DNA of 64,000 nt from Phallusia mammillata (Eukaryota): contig OZ281497.1 of the NCBI GenBank assembly GCA_965637545.1, forward strand, positions 15,314,001 to 15,378,000. The letters run 5' to 3'. Shown here in pieces: positions 6,001 to 54,000 of the stretch. The position numbers were made by a program. Position 1 is the stretch's first letter. Each line of letters opens with the position of its first letter.

Positions 6001-9000
6001 CCGTAAACTGTGCAAAAGTTCTATTAACTTATAAGCAAACAACACTATGAACATATGAAGACGATTCGCATACACATGTGTACTGTTTTGTTGTGATGCT
6101 TACTTGCCTGGGTAAAGTTTGCAACAACATAAAGCAAAAACGTCACATCTGCGATAACATTTCCCTGTTTTGCGCGGACATAAGACATTACCACCGGGGC
6201 AATCAACACCCCAAATAATATTGAAGCACCGGTCATGACAGAAAGAGATGTAGTTCCTTACAAAAATAATGATTTAATTTTCAGGAAGTACACTCACACA
6301 GATTAATCGTTTGTCTGTGCAAGTCTAGCAGCCGGAAAACAGTACAGCCTTATTTAGCTTGTCCAATTAGGGATACAGGGCTAAACAAATCAACACTTTT
6401 TTTACATTTTTTTCAAAGTATACTTTTGTTGAGTTGAGTTATAACTTACCTAAACCGCCTTTAATGTTAAGGCTCGATTGAAGATTGCGCAGAGCATTAT
6501 TTACCGAAAATATCAAAACCATACCGAAGATGTATATAATCATGGTAATTCTGATTTTGTTACGTTTTGACCGATTAGACGGAAGTTCTTGCGTTACCCC
6601 CGACTGTCCGACGTTTCAATTTGGCTAATCGTCATTCTAAATTTAAGTGTGCCTATTTTTTATTCAAATCACAGAATAAATTAAAACACTTTTTAGCTAC
6701 ACCAAACACAAAATCGTTAGTTTTCGTTCCCCTTCAAACTCCTGATAGCAGTGTTGCACTTTCGCAACCTATCTTTGCAACGACCTTGAACAACCGACTT
6801 TTAAATAGGTTGCTCCATAAACGTCCTGATGATCCCACCATAAATTTACCTTTTTTGTTCGTTTTTAACGAGACTGTTTCATTCAGCGAAAAACAATTTG
6901 GTCTTTGTTGCCAATGAAGTAAAAGGGTCACAACGAACTTACGTAGGCCTACGATCAAAGCCCCATAATGAACTTTGATAGTTCGCAAATAAACATTAAA
7001 CGGAGTGTTAATGGGTTCGTTGTAAAATCTTTAACAGCCGTTTACAAAACGCCAAAAAACTCGTCCTTCTGTACAATACCGCTGCGCATCCAATAAACCG
7101 ATTTACACCCAAGAAATTGTTACGGTTTTAGGCGTATATTAGGTGCAAAAAGACCGGGATTTGTTTCCGACTATCGGGTCCCAAACAGAAGTCACGAACT
7201 ACCTTCATAACGTGACGCATTTCTTGTTCCAACTAAAACAGCGTGCGTGAAGTGTTACACCTTTTTAATTCGTGCACTGCTTGTGGAAAGGATACAATCG
7301 CAACGAACGGCGCTTAGTGCATACTTATGGATATATTTTACTGCACTAAGAAATACATGTAAAGGATACCAGAAGTTGGTGCTGAAAAATAACATGTTGT
7401 ATTGTATTATATATATAACAGTAAAAGTTGTTCACTCTATACAGGTAGTTTTAAGCAGAAGCGCAACAAAACTGATGTTGCTTTGACCATGGTCTATCCA
7501 CCTTATGCAGTTACCGACAGTATAACTTAAATTACATTTACATTTAAACAAACTTGTGGTTGAGGAAGATTTTTTGTGTTGGAGGCAGTTTTCGTTTAAA
7601 GTGCGTTCGGCAATTTGGGAAATTAACAACAACTACACCAATGAGACGGGTCAAATCCAACCAATGCATTTTTCTTATTGCTTTGGTCCATGTCACAATC
7701 TTTGTTCCAACAGGATTGAACTTGGTGGTATTAAACCCTATTGGACCCACTCTTCAGACATTCGTAAACGAGTCGTTTCACTTGAGGCAAGTTTTTCATT
7801 TAAATTATAGTTTCGTTTCTCGTCTTTTTATGATACTGAAGTTTTTTATTTTCAAGGTACAATATAACTCCTCCGACCACAAAACTTAAAGTGATAGTCA
7901 ATTTAGCGCAATCAATGATGATGATTGGAGCTGCTTTTGGTGCTTTTTCAACCCCACTATGGTTGAACTACTTAAGGTAAAGACCTTTGTTTTCAAAAAT
8001 AGGTGAAGTTTTTTTTTTTTTGATAGTGATAGCCTTTTCTGTATCAGTCTCACGTTAAAGTTCCTAATAACCAAATTTATCACTTTTACAGCTTAAAGTT
8101 GTGTTTGGCTGTAATTCATTTGGTCTGTATAGCTTCTATTATTCTCATGTCGCCGGTGACGTACGCGTTTCATGCTTATGAGGCTTTAATCATGGGTCGA
8201 CTAATAGATGGATTCGTCAAGGGAGTGAGTTTTAGTCTCGGCCCGTTATACATTGCTGAAATCACCAGCCGCAAAACAGTAGCAGTCGATCAGGCGCCAC
8301 AAGGTTGGATCCTCATGGTCAGTGCTGGTTTTGCCAACATTATTGCTCATCCGGAGCTTTTAGGCAGTTTGACTACGTGGCCTTATGCAGTGGCGCTGCC
8401 AGTCATTTTCTCGATACTCTATTTGTTTGCTTATCCATGGGTGCCACATACAATACCACACCATGTGCACATCGAAAAACAAAACCAATGGGATGACCTT
8501 GAGGAAGGCTTTGATATGTCAGCATCCTCATTTTTGCTTTTGGAACGCCTTCGACATGCAAAAGGACAAGCCCTGGTGGAAGAATACGAAGAAATTCGAT
8601 CCGAAATCGCTGCAGAACGACATCTAAAAGAGACTCCAATTCGAAAAATTCTCGCCACCCGAAAGTACCAGCGCCAAATGTTGGCAGTGGTTATTTTACA
8701 GTTGACGTTGCAGGCTACAGGATTGCCAGTTCTGGTGCAATTTACCAACACGATTGTTGCGCTATCAGGTCTTTCCCCAGAGTATTCCAACTATTATGCA
8801 CTGGGTAATGTTTAACGTTTTTGATGTGTCTTATAGTTACGTTTCCGCTTAAGTATTCGTTGAGTCTAAGTTAATATACAGTATACCTCGCTTAAACTGA
8901 ATTCGGTTAATCCGGATCTTCGCCAAATTCGAAGTCCGGAAAATTTTTTTTTGGTCCAAAGGGGTCCGGATTAACCAAGGTTTACTGTATTCCTAAAACC

Positions 9001-51000: not shown

Positions 51001-54000
51001 ACGCTCTGAAAAGGGCCCGGGCTTAATAAAAGAATACGAAGACATACAATCGGAAATTGCTGCCGATAATCGTGTAGAAGGGGCTTCATTGCGCACTATT
51101 CTAACTATCGGAACATACCGCAGGCAGGTGATAGCTGCTATCGTGGTCCAATTCAGCTTGCAGGCATCTGGAATACAAGCTGTGATGCAGTATACCAACA
51201 ACATTTTTGAAAGCGCGGGAGTGCACCCTGGAAACTCTACATACTACACCATAGGTATGTTGATATAACAAAAGTTTACCACGCATTTCGCATAACTCTT
51301 GCATCTTTTTGTTAAAGGAACTCTAATATTAATGGGGCTTGCAGTGTTCGCTTCCACGGGGCTTCTAACACGATTTGGCACCAAACGAATGCTCGTTATT
51401 GGTTTGACAATTGTTGTCTGTGCCTTAACACTTTTAACCATTTCAACAACCAACAGCTCGGACTCATCAAATATTCTGGGAGTTATCAGTGTCGCTTTGT
51501 TTGCGATTGGCGTTGGTACCGGTCCCATGCTTACAATGGTGACTTATCCGTCGGAGCTAACCACTGTGGTTTCTCGACCCAACGCCATGTGGTTGGCTAG
51601 TGTAGTTTTTTGGGTAACTGGTGGTCTTGTGTCGTTTATCTTTCCCTACAGTTTGGAGCTTCTTGGTGGATACGCGTACATTCCTTTCACGGTACTAGTT
51701 ATGTTGTCGGTAAGTGTATTTTTGTTCGCAACAACCGACATTTGTTTATGTTTCAACTTTAGAATGTATGCACTACATTATATACAAGCTCCATGGCAAT
51801 TTGCGTTTCGTCGAGCTCACTGTTGTGAAAAAAGGTGGCGAAAAATGTTTAAAATTGCGATTGGCACAAAAGTTTCGCATCGAAGCAGAATAATAGTAAA
51901 TGATTTATACATCATATGTAATTTGTTTTCGAAAATCGTTTCGCAATATGCATTGCACAGAAAACATCTGGCACAATTAGTTTATCCTTTTCTAAAAAAC
52001 TAATTGCAATGAATATACAACACACGCGGTTATCTTACAAACAGAACCTTTGACAGCATGCCAGCGTGCAAACATATGTAACCTCTGTTTAAAAGTCCAG
52101 CTTTCTGATTAACTGATTAGTAATCATTTTTCTTCAGGGTGGTTATGTCATCTTCTTTTTACCGGAAACACGAAACCGTTCAGCCCAAGATATTAAAAGT
52201 TTTTTTGCGAAATCAAAACTCTCCATGTCGAATAAAGCCTCCTCCAAACAAAGTACTGAACTTTTACCTGCTGCCCTCATTTCAAAGACTGATGAGTTGT
52301 GAATGGTGCATGATTCACAACTTTGTTCCATACGATTTTTAACATCTTTTGCATTTTTTCACAATTTTACTACTACTGGTGCAACATGGTTTAAAAGTGT
52401 CTGAGACATGTTATTTTCATTCTCTGCTTAAAGTGTCTGAGACATGTATTTTTCATTCTCTATTTTCAAGCATTGTGTTTTAAACTTTCTTTCCTTGCAT
52501 TGTAATTTTCATGTTTCTTTTAGTTCGTACTTTAGCACACTGTAGCCTATTTTATTGCACCTATAGTTACAAGTTACTGTTCCAAAAGTTCCAAAAAAGT
52601 GAAATCTGCTCTTGTACTGTCTTATTCCGTTACTTTTTTGTCAACGGCCTCTTTTTTGACGATGGTAATGGAGAATTGCAAACTAATCACTTTGCTTAAC
52701 TCATACACGTACATTCATTTACACATTTTTATCCCAAACACATTTATTTGTTTCACTTATAGGTTGGGTAAAATGTGCTCCGTTTATACTCATCATAACG
52801 CACTTGCGTATTAACTACACAATTTCCCGCACTAAACCACTTGGTTTGAATGTTACGTACATATTACTGCATTTATTTACTGATATCATGGAAATTTTGA
52901 ATGTTTTTGCATTGGCGTCCCCGCAACCAGCACTGTTATGTGTTTTGGCATCCCTTTTTAATTTAAAACATACCATATACCAAAGCCTAACGTAATTTAA
53001 AGGTGCAATTTTTTATTTGTCTCTTCAGCATTTGTCGCTTTTCCTTATTAGCCAACATAGTTTTGTGCAATTAAAATTCAGTTGTCTAACTGAACCAATT
53101 TTACTTTTTTCACAAAAGTGTGCAAATTCCGGTTTTGTGTGAATCGAGCCCTAAACATCATTTGCTGCCCGTTTTTTAACGTGTTCCTTAGAAATGGGTA
53201 AATTATACATTAGGATGCCATCGACAAACTCTTGGGTTGTTGCTTTATAGTGTTACAACAAAGATGTTCGGTGTAATGTTACAACATCGCCACATAAAGT
53301 TAATACAACCGAATCAAGTGTTTTTAAGTAGAAAAGCCTAAACGGCTTATGCAGTGCCTGTTGGTTGCCGAGTCCAGCTGTACATTGGGACTTCTAAGAA
53401 TAGTTGTTGTTACACCCAGGGCGTTGAGGAAACCAACGTTGTCCACAGAACATAATAATTGTTTTTGTTAGATTGTTTAACTACAGTTGAAAAGTTTCCT
53501 GCGGTATATCACTTTTAGGCTTCAGTGATATACTTAGGATTAGTCGATCGCCTGTCCGGCACGCGGTAACTTTTTGTCCGATCTGGTTTGACCGTGGGCG
53601 ATGATATGCGGGATAACTTTGGGATGGTAAACAAAAGATTTCATCAGTAATGAATGTGGTAATCCGATTTTTTATTGATGGCTTTGCACATCGCGCTTGC
53701 AATTAGGTCCAAAAGAAAACCCGTACGTTTTTCAAACACCGATCTGTAATTAATCTCGTTTGACAGAAGTAGGCTAGTTGGCATGACGTATTCAATTCGA
53801 TTGTTCCTGTTTTGTTAAGGTAGTTAAAGGCAAATTATTCAGCATTCTTGTTGTCTCATTAGTCGCGTTGTGATTCCAATTAAACAGAAGCACTGTTTTG
53901 CAAAAGTCAGCGGTACTGTACCGTACTTCTGCAGGTCGCAACAAGCTTGTGTGACTCAGCAAATACAAATGGTGCTGAGGCTGGGCTAAAGTTTCAGGAG

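What the first reader, a model, noticed from the sequence alone, without database searches (positions are those of the whole stretch)
7641..52302. Seven-gene SLC2-like array whose hexose-binding residues are systematically replaced
Against GLUT1 numbering, Q161 and Q283 are kept. Q282 becomes L/T/W, N288 becomes P/A/Q, N317 becomes L/M, E380 becomes a small residue, W388 has no equivalent and N411 becomes F/Y. The pocket is predicted to be much more hydrophobic, and it differs among four subtypes (1, 2, 3/4, 5/6/7). This suggests a lineage-specific family carrying non-glucose cargo. TM1 keeps Asn rather than the proton-coupling Asp, consistent with uniport.
Basis: partly seen in the sequence, partly recalled or inferred. 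Interest (0 to 1): 0.65.

Follow-up and report, generated by a model that had tools for sequence, protein, structure and literature searches.

The report
Divergent ascidian GLUT-like transporter gene array
Seven intact neighbouring genes of the sea squirt Phallusia mammillata encode glucose-transporter-like proteins in which most sugar-contacting residues are changed, so they probably carry something other than glucose, but what they carry is unknown.

Summary
The array is real. Seven + strand genes lie at 7641-52302, each with five coding exons and an intact CDS of 500-510 aa. The window is ascidian: a public Phallusia mammillata protein (P0001) equals gene 7 spliced as in my model.

The proteins belong to the sugar-porter/SLC2 family. 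Pfam Sugar_tr scores 183 bits. The AF2 model has pLDDT 92 and matches GLUT3 at TM-score 0.94.

- Q283 is kept.
- Q282 is L/T/W, N288 is P/A/Q, N317 is L/M, E380 is A/G, W388 is S/T/I/V and N411 is F/Y.
- TM1 has Asn in 6 of 7 genes.
- "Q161 kept" fails. Three profile or multiple alignments place an invariant Gly there.

Four of the six replaced sites are inherited. E380 and W388 are already absent in vertebrate class II GLUTs. N317 and N411 are absent in ordinary ascidian GLUT5-like proteins.

The seven genes are a Phallusia-lineage expansion of an ascidian-wide divergent clade that includes Ciona and Styela proteins. That clade also lacks the conserved arginines R153, R212 and R333. dN/dS is 0.12-0.42.

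The genes are probably uniporters for a non-hexose solute, but the substrate is untested. Interest is moderate.

The parts
7641..9718 (+). Gene 1 (502 aa), the most divergent paralog
   Evidence: Exons 7641-7786, 7857-7976, 8092-8804, 9043-9440, 9587-9718. Intron 1 has a GC donor, shifted 5 nt relative to genes 2-7. Pfam Sugar_tr matches exon 3 at 8.8e-16 and exon 4 at 3.1e-7. It lacks the R92 Arg (Leu-Lys at R92-R93), and PETKG reads PSVHR.
10942..14624 (+). Gene 2 (506 aa)
   Evidence: Exons 10942-11082, 11504-11631, 11872-12581, 12906-13303, 14481-14624. All introns are GT-AG. It is sister to gene 1 in both trees.
16492..19328 (+). Gene 3 (500 aa)
   Evidence: Exons 16492-16632, 16975-17099, 17153-17853, 18286-18683, 19191-19328. 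It pairs with gene 4; the exon-3 region is 93.8% identical at nucleotide level and dN/dS is 0.24.
22859..26075 (+). Gene 4 (505 aa)
   Evidence: Exons 22859-22999, 23689-23813, 23869-24569, 25284-25681, 25923-26075. The N29 column is Thr. E329, E393 and E454 are P, I and H, as in gene 3.
32038..34653 (+). Gene 5 (501 aa)
   Evidence: Exons 32038-32178, 32708-32832, 32913-33622, 33688-34079, 34516-34653. It lies inside the 6 kb duplication 30293-36316 / 38038-44023, which is 96.7% identical.
39779..42395 (+). Gene 6 (501 aa)
   Evidence: Exons 39779-39919, 40447-40571, 40651-41360, 41426-41817, 42258-42395. dN/dS against gene 5 is 0.42. It has Trp at the Q282 column.
50069..52302 (+). Gene 7 (510 aa), matching public protein P0001
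   Evidence: Exons 50069-50209, 50340-50464, 50545-51254, 51318-51709, 52138-52302. P0001 (Phallusia mammillata, 'SLC2 member 1-like') is 100% identical over exons 1-4 and 98% over exon 5. Pfam Sugar_tr scores 183 bits. The AF2 model has pLDDT 92.2.
36188..36282 (+). Relic fragment of a gene 3/4-type exon 4
   Evidence: tblastn hits of g3E4 and g4E4 residues 95-123 at 80-87% identity, lying outside any gene model.
43883..43993 (+). Second copy of the relic exon-4 fragment
   Evidence: tblastn hit of g4E4 residues 89-124 at 84% identity, E = 2.5e-15. It is the duplicate of the first relic within the 6 kb repeat.

Best explanation
The region is a tandem array of seven functional paralogs in the ascidian Phallusia mammillata. 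They encode 12-helix sugar-porter-fold (SLC2/GLUT-like) membrane transporters. They belong to a fast-evolving, ascidian-wide offshoot of the GLUT family whose C-terminal half scores best against class II GLUTs (GLUT7, GLUT5). The array expanded by local duplication within the Phallusia lineage, and the genes 5/6 duplication is very recent.

The proteins keep the fold, the TM10 Gly-Pro break, Q283, W412, the E146-R400 salt-bridge pair and a TM1 Asn. They have lost nearly all residues that hydrogen-bond glucose in GLUT1/3. They have also lost three arginines (R153, R212, R333) of the cytoplasmic salt-bridge motif that is conserved in every sampled sequence outside the divergent clade.

I infer that they work as proton-independent facilitators (alternating access) for an uncharged solute that is not bound like glucose. 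This is most likely not a hexose. The cytoplasmic gate is probably weaker or rewired, and the pockets are paralog-specific.

Shown: gene structure, family membership, fold, residue replacements, purifying selection and clade membership. Inferred: uniport, non-hexose cargo and altered gating.
For: Gene models: 7 of 7 CDS are intact, and gene 7 equals public protein P0001.

Family:
- Pfam PF00083 scores 183 bits against a 22.3-bit cut-off.
- The 14 best PDB matches are all GLUT1/3/4/5/7/9 at 119-150 bits. Bacterial, plant and Plasmodium porters score 51 bits or less.
- The exon-4 profile scores GLUT7 at 1.6e-11 and GLUT5 at 4e-9, against 5e-5 for GLUT3.

Fold: AF2 gives pLDDT 92.2 and pTM 0.89. 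Foldseek's best match is outward-occluded GLUT3 (4zw9) at TMt 0.94 and rmsd 2.3 A.

Pocket: only 2 of 19 GLUT1 pocket positions are unchanged in all seven genes. The pocket list and the effects of single mutants come from passages of PMC11169512 and PMC9867014.

Gate:
- R153, R212 and R333 columns: 0 of 7 genes have Arg.
- Rows outside the divergent clade have Arg in 16 of 16 rows in all three columns.
- E146, R126 and R400 are kept in 7 of 7.
- Passages of PMC10322154 name E151-R407 and E400-R158 as the state-dependent pairs in rat GLUT5.

Constraint: dN/dS is 0.24 (g3/g4), 0.42 (g5/g6), 0.12 (g5/g7) and 0.22 (g6/g7).

Clade: the seven genes are monophyletic in the exon-3 and exon-4 trees. 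Their nearest named relatives are from Ciona and Styela.
Against: No transport, expression or localisation data were seen.

TM5 and TM7 still carry a ladder of Gln and Asn that could hydrogen-bond a sugar or polyol. Class II GLUTs transport sugars without E380 or W388, so loss of those two residues says little.

Nearby basic residues could replace R153 and R333 functionally: R149/K150 and K348/R349 in P0001 numbering. Rewired gating is therefore not demonstrated.

I could not inspect model coordinates. 'Lines the pocket' therefore rests on alignment to GLUT1 and on helical periodicity. Alignment confidence in TM5 is low.

The full-length fold was done only for the gene 7 product. The exon-3 tree used the quick method. 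The two trees disagree on whether ordinary ascidian GLUT5-like proteins group with the divergent clade.
Confidence: 0.6

Rival explanations
1. They are still hexose or fructose (or polyol) facilitators that coordinate the sugar with a different residue set, using the Gln/Asn ladder on TM5 and TM7 instead of the TM8/10/11 Asn/Glu/Trp set.
For: Q or N is present at the G157, V165 (g3-7), Q172, Q279, Q283, N288 (g3-7) and Y292 columns. W412 and the overall GLUT fold are kept. Class II rows also lack E380 and W388. GLUT9 keeps low glucose transport with a partly changed pocket (PMC11169512, passages).
Against: 17 of 19 pocket positions differ from GLUT3 in at least one gene, and only 2 are kept in all seven. 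Single substitutions at Q161, N317, Y292 and W388 already lower GLUT1 uptake (PMC9867014, passages). The abstract of PMC10322154 says sugar-coordinating residues differ little among sugar-carrying GLUTs and PfHT1 (listing). Phallusia has at least one ordinary GLUT5-like protein (P0039) that keeps Q282, Q283 and N288.
Confidence: 0.27
2. They no longer transport and act as sensors, receptors or scaffolds, because both the substrate site and the conserved salt-bridge motif have decayed.
For: R153, R212 and R333 are lost in 7 of 7 genes. E329 is lost in 6 of 7, E454 in 3 of 7 and E393 in 2 of 7. Only the first Pro of the GPXPXP motif is kept. Salt-bridge mutants arrest GLUTs in the inward-facing state (PMC10322154, passages).
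Against: Purifying selection acts on all four pairs tested. The membrane helices, the TM10 break and the E146-R400 pair are kept. Repeated duplication with retention of pocket differences fits substrate diversification better than a sensor role.
Confidence: 0.1
3. Some or all copies are young pseudogenes drifting neutrally.
For: Relic exon fragments in the array show that copies do die. Gene 1 has a non-canonical GC donor and the most degraded motifs. Genes 5/6 have the highest dN/dS, 0.42.
Against: 0 of 7 genes has a stop or frameshift across about 1.5 kb each, although protein identity falls to 33-50% between subtypes. dN/dS is well below 1. Gene 7 has a matching public protein record.
Confidence: 0.03

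Closest known systems
Class II GLUTs: SLC2A7 (GLUT7, PDB 9j2n) and SLC2A5 (GLUT5, 4ybq/4yb9)
   Same: They are the best and ungapped matches to the exon-4 (TM8-12) profile, at 1.6e-11 and 4e-9. There is no Trp at the W388 column and no Glu at E380. The 12-TM plus ICH fold matches, with TMt 0.91 for GLUT7 and 0.87-0.89 for GLUT5. There is an N-glycosylation sequon in loop 1, read directly from the sequence.
   Different: Sequence identity in the structural alignments is only 23-25%. Q282, N288, Y292 and N317 are changed (GLUT7 has Asn at N317). The TM11 His/Asn is replaced by Phe/Tyr. GPXPXP is reduced to GP. R153, R212 and R333 are lost.
Class I GLUT1/GLUT3 (4pyp, 5eqg, 4zw9)
   Same: GLUT1 gives the highest full-length sequence score, 150 bits. 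GLUT3 outward-occluded is the best structural match, TMt 0.94. TM1 Asn, Q279, Q283 and W412 are kept.
   Different: Of the seven glucose hydrogen-bonding residues (Q161, Q282, Q283, N288, N317, E380, W388), only Q283 is kept.
GLUT9 / SLC2A9, the urate transporter (8zxm, 8y65)
   Same: It is the top hit of the exon-3 profile, at 1.8e-23. It is a GLUT whose altered pocket gives a non-sugar substrate. T30 is Leu in both (GLUT9 L75, PMC11169512 passages).
   Different: GLUT9 keeps Asn at N288 and has polar Tyr and Glu at Q282 and N317. The ascidian proteins have L/T/W, P/A/Q and L/M at these columns. Among the 19 mapped pocket columns no gene has a charged residue.
Ascidian relatives: Ciona intestinalis XP_026691171.1 and XP_078493723.1, C. 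savignyi H2YGS0, Styela clava XP_077974566.1 and XP_039263800.1
   Same: They fall in the same starred clade (98 SH-aLRT, 13 rows) at 33-42% identity. They share Gly/Ser/Thr at Q161, non-Gln at Q282, Gln/Ser at N288, and loss of R153, R212 and R333.
   Different: They are single sequences from other species and are annotated only as GLUT1-, 5- or 7-like. Their gene order was not examined. The seven Phallusia genes form their own clade.

Membership tests
Sugar porter family (Pfam PF00083 Sugar_tr, within MFS) | Match to the family HMM above the curated cut-off | tested here: met
   P0001 (= gene 7) scores 183 bits against a 22.3-bit cut-off, covering profile positions 15-450 of 452. Gene 1 exon 3 scores 58.2 bits and exon 4 scores 30.1 bits.
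Sugar porter family (Pfam PF00083 Sugar_tr, within MFS) | Twelve TM helices in two six-helix bundles with a cytoplasmic helical (ICH) domain | tested here: met
   The AF2 model of P0001 has pLDDT 92.2 and shows TM helices plus helices 210-276 between TM6 and TM7. Foldseek TMt is 0.94 to GLUT3. This was done for the gene 7 product only.
Sugar porter family (Pfam PF00083 Sugar_tr, within MFS) | Complete sugar-porter motif / cytoplasmic salt-bridge network (GRR, E-x6-R, PESPR, ERAGRR, PETKG) | tested here: not met
   R153, R212 and R333 columns have 0 of 7 Arg. E329 is kept in 1 of 7, E454 in 4 of 7 and E393 in 5 of 7. Kept are E146 (7/7), R400 (7/7), R126 (7/7) and R92 (6/7). Basic residues nearby may compensate for R153 and R333.
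SLC2 / GLUT class I (glucose carriers) | Hexose hydrogen-bonding residues Q161, Q282, Q283, N288, N317, E380, W388 | tested here: not met
   Only Q283 is kept, in 7 of 7 genes. The other six columns are G; L/T/W; P/A/Q; L/M; A/G; S/T/I/V.
SLC2 / GLUT (facilitative, not proton-coupled) | Asn rather than Asp at the TM1 position of the XylE D27 proton site (GLUT1 N29) | tested here: met
   The column is Asn in 6 of 7 genes and Thr in gene 4, with no Asp. The equivalence to XylE D27 is recalled, not from a call. Actual coupling is not testable here.
SLC2 / GLUT class II (GLUT5/7/9/11) | No Trp after the TM10 GP motif (W388 column) and no Glu at E380 | tested here: met
   0 of 7 genes has W or E at these columns. 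The 6 vertebrate class II rows also have 0 of 6. That this defines class II is recalled knowledge.
SLC2 / GLUT class II (GLUT5/7/9/11) | Placement inside the class II clade in a tree | tested here: inconclusive
   In the exon-3 tree the 24-row ascidian group stands apart from both the vertebrate class II rows and the rest. In the exon-4 tree the ordinary ascidian GLUT5-likes join the other GLUTs and the divergent clade stands alone. No root was available.
SLC2 / GLUT | Measured facilitated transport of a hexose, urate or inositol | not testable with these tools
   This needs uptake assays.

The most novel reading that the evidence does not exclude
Ascidians evolved their own GLUT-derived transporter subfamily. 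It has given up hexose recognition and half of the sugar-porter salt-bridge lock that is conserved in every sampled sequence outside this clade. In Phallusia it is diversifying by tandem duplication into carriers for several uncharged, partly apolar, non-sugar solutes that may be specific to ascidian physiology. If so, it would be a natural experiment showing that the GLUT fold can cycle without R153, R212 and R333.
Probability: 0.35. Interest if true: 0.65.

Novelty: new variant of a known kind. Interest (0 to 1): 0.4.

Why it matters
GLUT substrate-contact residues and the cytoplasmic salt-bridge motif are treated as near-invariant hallmarks of sugar porters (PMC10322154, passages and abstract). 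Here a clade under purifying selection has changed both, and it has seven differing natural pocket variants side by side. That offers a compact test set for two questions: what determines GLUT substrate choice, and how much of the salt-bridge network alternating access really needs. It also warns that database names such as 'glucose transporter member 1-like' for these ascidian proteins probably mislead. The finding is not a new kind of system. Lineage-specific expansions of divergent sugar-porter-like genes are common in invertebrates.

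Tried and rejected
1. One search was a mistyped reference. It was corrected.

2. Pfam found nothing in the gene 1 exon-1 ORF. Exons 1, 2 and 5 were instead defined by comparing the paralogs with each other and by P0001.

3. The word-based protein search found few relatives. From exon 3 with 'longer' lengths it found 1 protein. From P0001 it found 7 at E <= 1e-10. The exhaustive HMMER search was needed.

4. A further copy was looked for in the flanks and intergenic DNA with all 35 exon translations. Only two relic exon-4 fragments turned up.

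5. The idea that the pocket diversifies faster than the rest was rejected: 4 of 19 pocket columns are invariant against 79 of 293 other TM columns.

6. The reading 'Q75 (IVQLS) = Q161' was considered because of the local Q-L match. It was rejected because three alignments are ungapped and the AF2 TM5 helix runs 149-173 directly after TM4. In addition, genes 1 and 2 have Met and Leu there.

7. The pseudogene reading was rejected.

8. Two literature searches for a description of this ascidian clade found nothing relevant. One search returned 17 papers, 15 listed; the one that looked relevant, PMC10159005, concerns another 10-exon Ciona SLC2a5 gene. One search returned 0 papers.

9. tRNA scan of the window: 0 genes.

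Full report
WHAT IS THERE. The window has no N and about 38% G+C. Translations of three gene-1 exon ORFs hit seven collinear sets of + strand exons. Two further small exons per gene were found by comparing the copies with each other.

Each gene has five coding exons. The CDS lengths are 1503-1533 nt, all divisible by three and without internal stops. 27 of 28 introns are GT-AG. Intron 1 of gene 1 has a GC donor, with both of its splice sites displaced 5 nt. The outer limits, 7641 and 52302, are exactly the finding's coordinates. No further copy lies in the flanks. Only two relic pieces of a gene 3/4-type exon 4 remain, at 36188-36282 and 43883-43993.

HOW THE SPLICED MODELS WERE HANDLED. No full-length search or fold was therefore made for genes 1-6. 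[quoted passage not shown] It is identical to gene 7 over exons 1-4 and differs by one residue in exon 5. Its junction residues are the ones my model predicts. This names the organism, an ascidian. It independently confirms the five-exon model for gene 7, and it gave me a tool-supplied full-length sequence for further work. The window is not human.

FAMILY AND FOLD.
- P0001 matches Pfam Sugar_tr at 183 bits (cut-off 22.3) and MFS_1 at 78 bits.
- Against PDB sequences, the 14 best distinct chains are all GLUT1, 3, 4, 5, 7 or 9 (119-150 bits). Bacterial GlcP, PfHT1 and plant STP10 score 51 bits or less.
- The seven-paralog profile of exon 3 scores GLUT9, GLUT7 and GLUT1 at about 1e-23 to 1e-22.
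- The profile of exon 4 prefers class II: GLUT7 at 1.6e-11 and GLUT5 at 4e-9, both ungapped, against GLUT3 at 5e-5.
- An AF2 model of P0001, built with a 75-row alignment, has mean pLDDT 92.2 and pTM 0.89.
- The model's best Foldseek match is outward-occluded GLUT3 (4zw9), with TM-score 0.94 on the target and rmsd 2.3 A.

RESIDUE MAP. Exon 4 aligns to GLUT1 with a constant offset, and TM7 aligns without gaps. A MAFFT alignment of 29 full-length proteins with the 35 exon translations added as separate fragments gives the same columns. In that alignment a gar GLUT3 row (named) carries at every tabulated column the residue that the GLUT1 site name gives, except Val at I164.

For g1..g7 the columns read:
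- Q282: L,T,L,L,L,W,L
- Q283: Q in all seven
- N288: P,A,Q,Q,Q,Q,Q
- Y292: Q in all seven
- N317: L,M,M,M,M,M,M
- F379: A,V,L,L,V,V,V
- E380: A,G,G,G,G,G,G
- W388: S,T,I,V,V,V,V
- N411: F,Y,F,F,F,F,F
- W412: W in all seven
- N415: S,S,A,A,G,G,G
- F26: T, then M in the other six
- T30: L in six, I in gene 4
- N29: N in six, T in gene 4

Of 19 GLUT1 pocket positions, only Q283 and W412 are unchanged in all seven genes. The pocket list comes from passages of PMC11169512 and PMC9867014.

THE Q161 PROBLEM. Three alignments run ungapped through TM5 and put an invariant Gly in the Q161 column. They are the exon-3 profile against GLUT9, GLUT7 and GLUT1, the multiple alignment and an hhalign comparison with a 27-protein profile of ordinary GLUTs. 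Posterior confidence there is high against GLUT7 but only about 0.3-0.5 against GLUT1, and hhalign confidence is 4-5 of 9.

Single-sequence phmmer against GLUT1 inserts two 4-residue gaps and puts the Gln of 'IVQLS' on H160. In the AF2 model, TM5 is helical from residue 149 to 173, straight after TM4 ends at 146. This leaves no room for an inserted loop and favours the ungapped register.

I conclude that Q161 is most likely replaced by Gly. Gln lies one helical turn before it (invariant) and one turn after it (genes 3-7 only; Met in gene 1 and Leu in gene 2). By helical periodicity these would sit on the same face, which is an inference.

With Q279, Q283, the Gln at N288 and Y292, and Asn at the Q172 column, TM5 and TM7 stay rich in amides while the TM8/10/11 contributions turn apolar or small. 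'Much more hydrophobic' is thus only half right.

WHAT IS INHERITED AND WHAT IS NEW. The exhaustive search found 3825 representatives at E <= 1e-3 and 59 at E <= 1e-30. The seven best full-length ones (34-42% identity over matched stretches; 33-40% in the alignment) are from Ciona intestinalis, C. savignyi and Styela clava, plus one unnamed record.

In a quick exon-3 tree of 90 rows, the seven genes form a clade (SH-aLRT 99). It sits inside a 13-row clade with those proteins (98), then a 19-row clade that adds Clavelina, Ciona and Styela proteins (99). A careful exon-4 tree of 35 rows again gives the seven as one clade (95/98), made of pairs (g1,g2) and (g3,g4) and the triplet (g5,g6,g7). The trees disagree on whether ordinary ascidian GLUT5-like proteins join this clade, so its sister group is unresolved.

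In the site table:
- E380 and W388 are already absent in 6 of 6 vertebrate class II rows.
- N317, E380, W388, N411 and N415 are absent in 5 of 5 ordinary ascidian GLUT5-like rows, which include a second Phallusia protein, P0039.
- Those ordinary rows keep Q282 in 3 of 5, Q283 in 5 of 5 and N288 in 4 of 5.

The changes special to the subclade holding the array are therefore Q282, N288, Y292-to-Gln and the new Gln residues on TM5.

A SECOND, UNREPORTED CHANGE. The columns of R153, R212 (PESPR) and R333 (ERAGRR) hold Arg in 16 of 16 rows outside the divergent clade. Within the 13 divergent-clade rows they hold Arg in 2, 1 and 0 rows respectively. They hold Arg in 0 of 7 window genes.

E329 survives in 1 of 7 genes, E454 in 4 of 7 and E393 in 5 of 7. 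Genes 3 and 4 lack all three. E146, R126 and R400 are kept in 7 of 7, and R92 in 6 of 7. Of the two state-dependent pairs named for rat GLUT5, E151-R407 and E400-R158 (PMC10322154, passages), the first is intact. The second has lost its arginine.

GPXPXP is reduced to GP followed by four non-Pro residues, yet the model still breaks TM10 there.

Caveat: R149/K150 and K348/R349 lie close to the lost R153 and R333 and may substitute for them.

HISTORY AND CONSTRAINT. Genes 5 and 6 lie in a 6.0 kb duplication that is 96.7% identical. Gene 7 is 91-92% identical to both across the gene body. Genes 3 and 4 share 84-94% over their exons.

Nei-Gojobori counts were summed over exons 1-4, each exon aligned on its own. 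They give dN/dS of 0.24 (g3/g4), 0.42 (g5/g6), 0.12 (g5/g7) and 0.22 (g6/g7). Together with seven intact reading frames at 33-50% identity between subtypes, this argues for function.

However, pocket columns are no more variable than other TM columns, with 4 of 19 invariant against 79 of 293.

MECHANISM. I consider a facilitative alternating-access carrier most likely, for three reasons:
- The GLUT fold, both bundles, the TM7b and TM10 breaks and one inter-bundle salt-bridge pair are intact.
- There is no acidic TM1 residue.
- No gene has a charged residue at any of the 19 mapped pocket columns.

The cargo is probably an uncharged solute that is not bound as glucose is. Rivals are a sugar or polyol carrier using the Gln ladder (0.27), a non-transporting derivative (0.1) and pseudogenes (0.03). 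None of this can be settled without assays.

NOVELTY. Two full-text searches found no description of this ascidian clade. The one ascidian SLC2 paper I opened concerns a different 10-exon Ciona savignyi gene (passages). Public records call these proteins GLUT1-, 5-, 7- or 9-like. I rate the array as a new variant of a known kind.

LIMITS.
- I had no model coordinates, so no true structural overlay was possible.
- I had no animal genome collection for synteny, and no expression data.
- Supplements of papers were not consulted.
- Many alignment rows are unnamed representatives of unknown species.

Noticed in passing
window 7785-7858: Intron 1 of gene 1 uses a GC donor. Both its splice sites lie 5 nt 3' of the positions used in genes 2-7, while exon 1 plus exon 2 still total 266 nt. 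This looks like an intron slide.
   Followed up: partly
window 36188-36282 and 43883-43993: Relic fragments of the 3' part of a gene 3/4-type exon 4 lie downstream of genes 5 and 6. They were carried along in the 6 kb, 96.7% identical duplication 30293-36316 / 38038-44023.
   Followed up: partly
window 60844-62253 (+): An uninterrupted 469-aa ORF matches the Pfam CAF1 ribonuclease family (1.8e-61) and weakly matches PARN in the PDB (1.8e-8). It is a neighbouring gene unrelated to the array and is apparently intronless.
   Followed up: partly
window 21635-21919 (-) and 58119-58559 (-): These are mobile-element debris. One is a reverse-transcriptase (PF00078) fragment between genes 3 and 4. The other is a TNP-like RNase H N-terminal domain fragment downstream of the array.
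   Followed up: no
window 46049-46518 and 46853-47250: Minisatellites with 75/149/224-nt periods lie in the 7.7 kb gap between genes 6 and 7.
   Followed up: no
window 40651-41360 (gene 6 exon 3) and 22859-22999 (gene 4 exon 1): There are recent pocket changes inside otherwise near-identical pairs. Gene 6 has Trp where genes 5 and 7 have Leu (Q282 column). Gene 4 has Thr-Ile where gene 3 has Asn-Leu (N29-T30 columns).
   Followed up: partly
window, loop TM9-TM10 of genes 2-7 (e.g. 33690-34079): N-x-S/T sequons occur in loop 1 of all seven genes and also in the TM9-TM10 loop of genes 2-7, for example 'NSSNSS' in genes 5-6 ('NSSDSS' in gene 7). As far as I recall, a loop-9 site is otherwise a class III GLUT trait.
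   Followed up: no
window 1573-1767 and 6442-6635: A 195-bp direct repeat, 88% identical, lies upstream of the array. Its nature is unknown.
   Followed up: no
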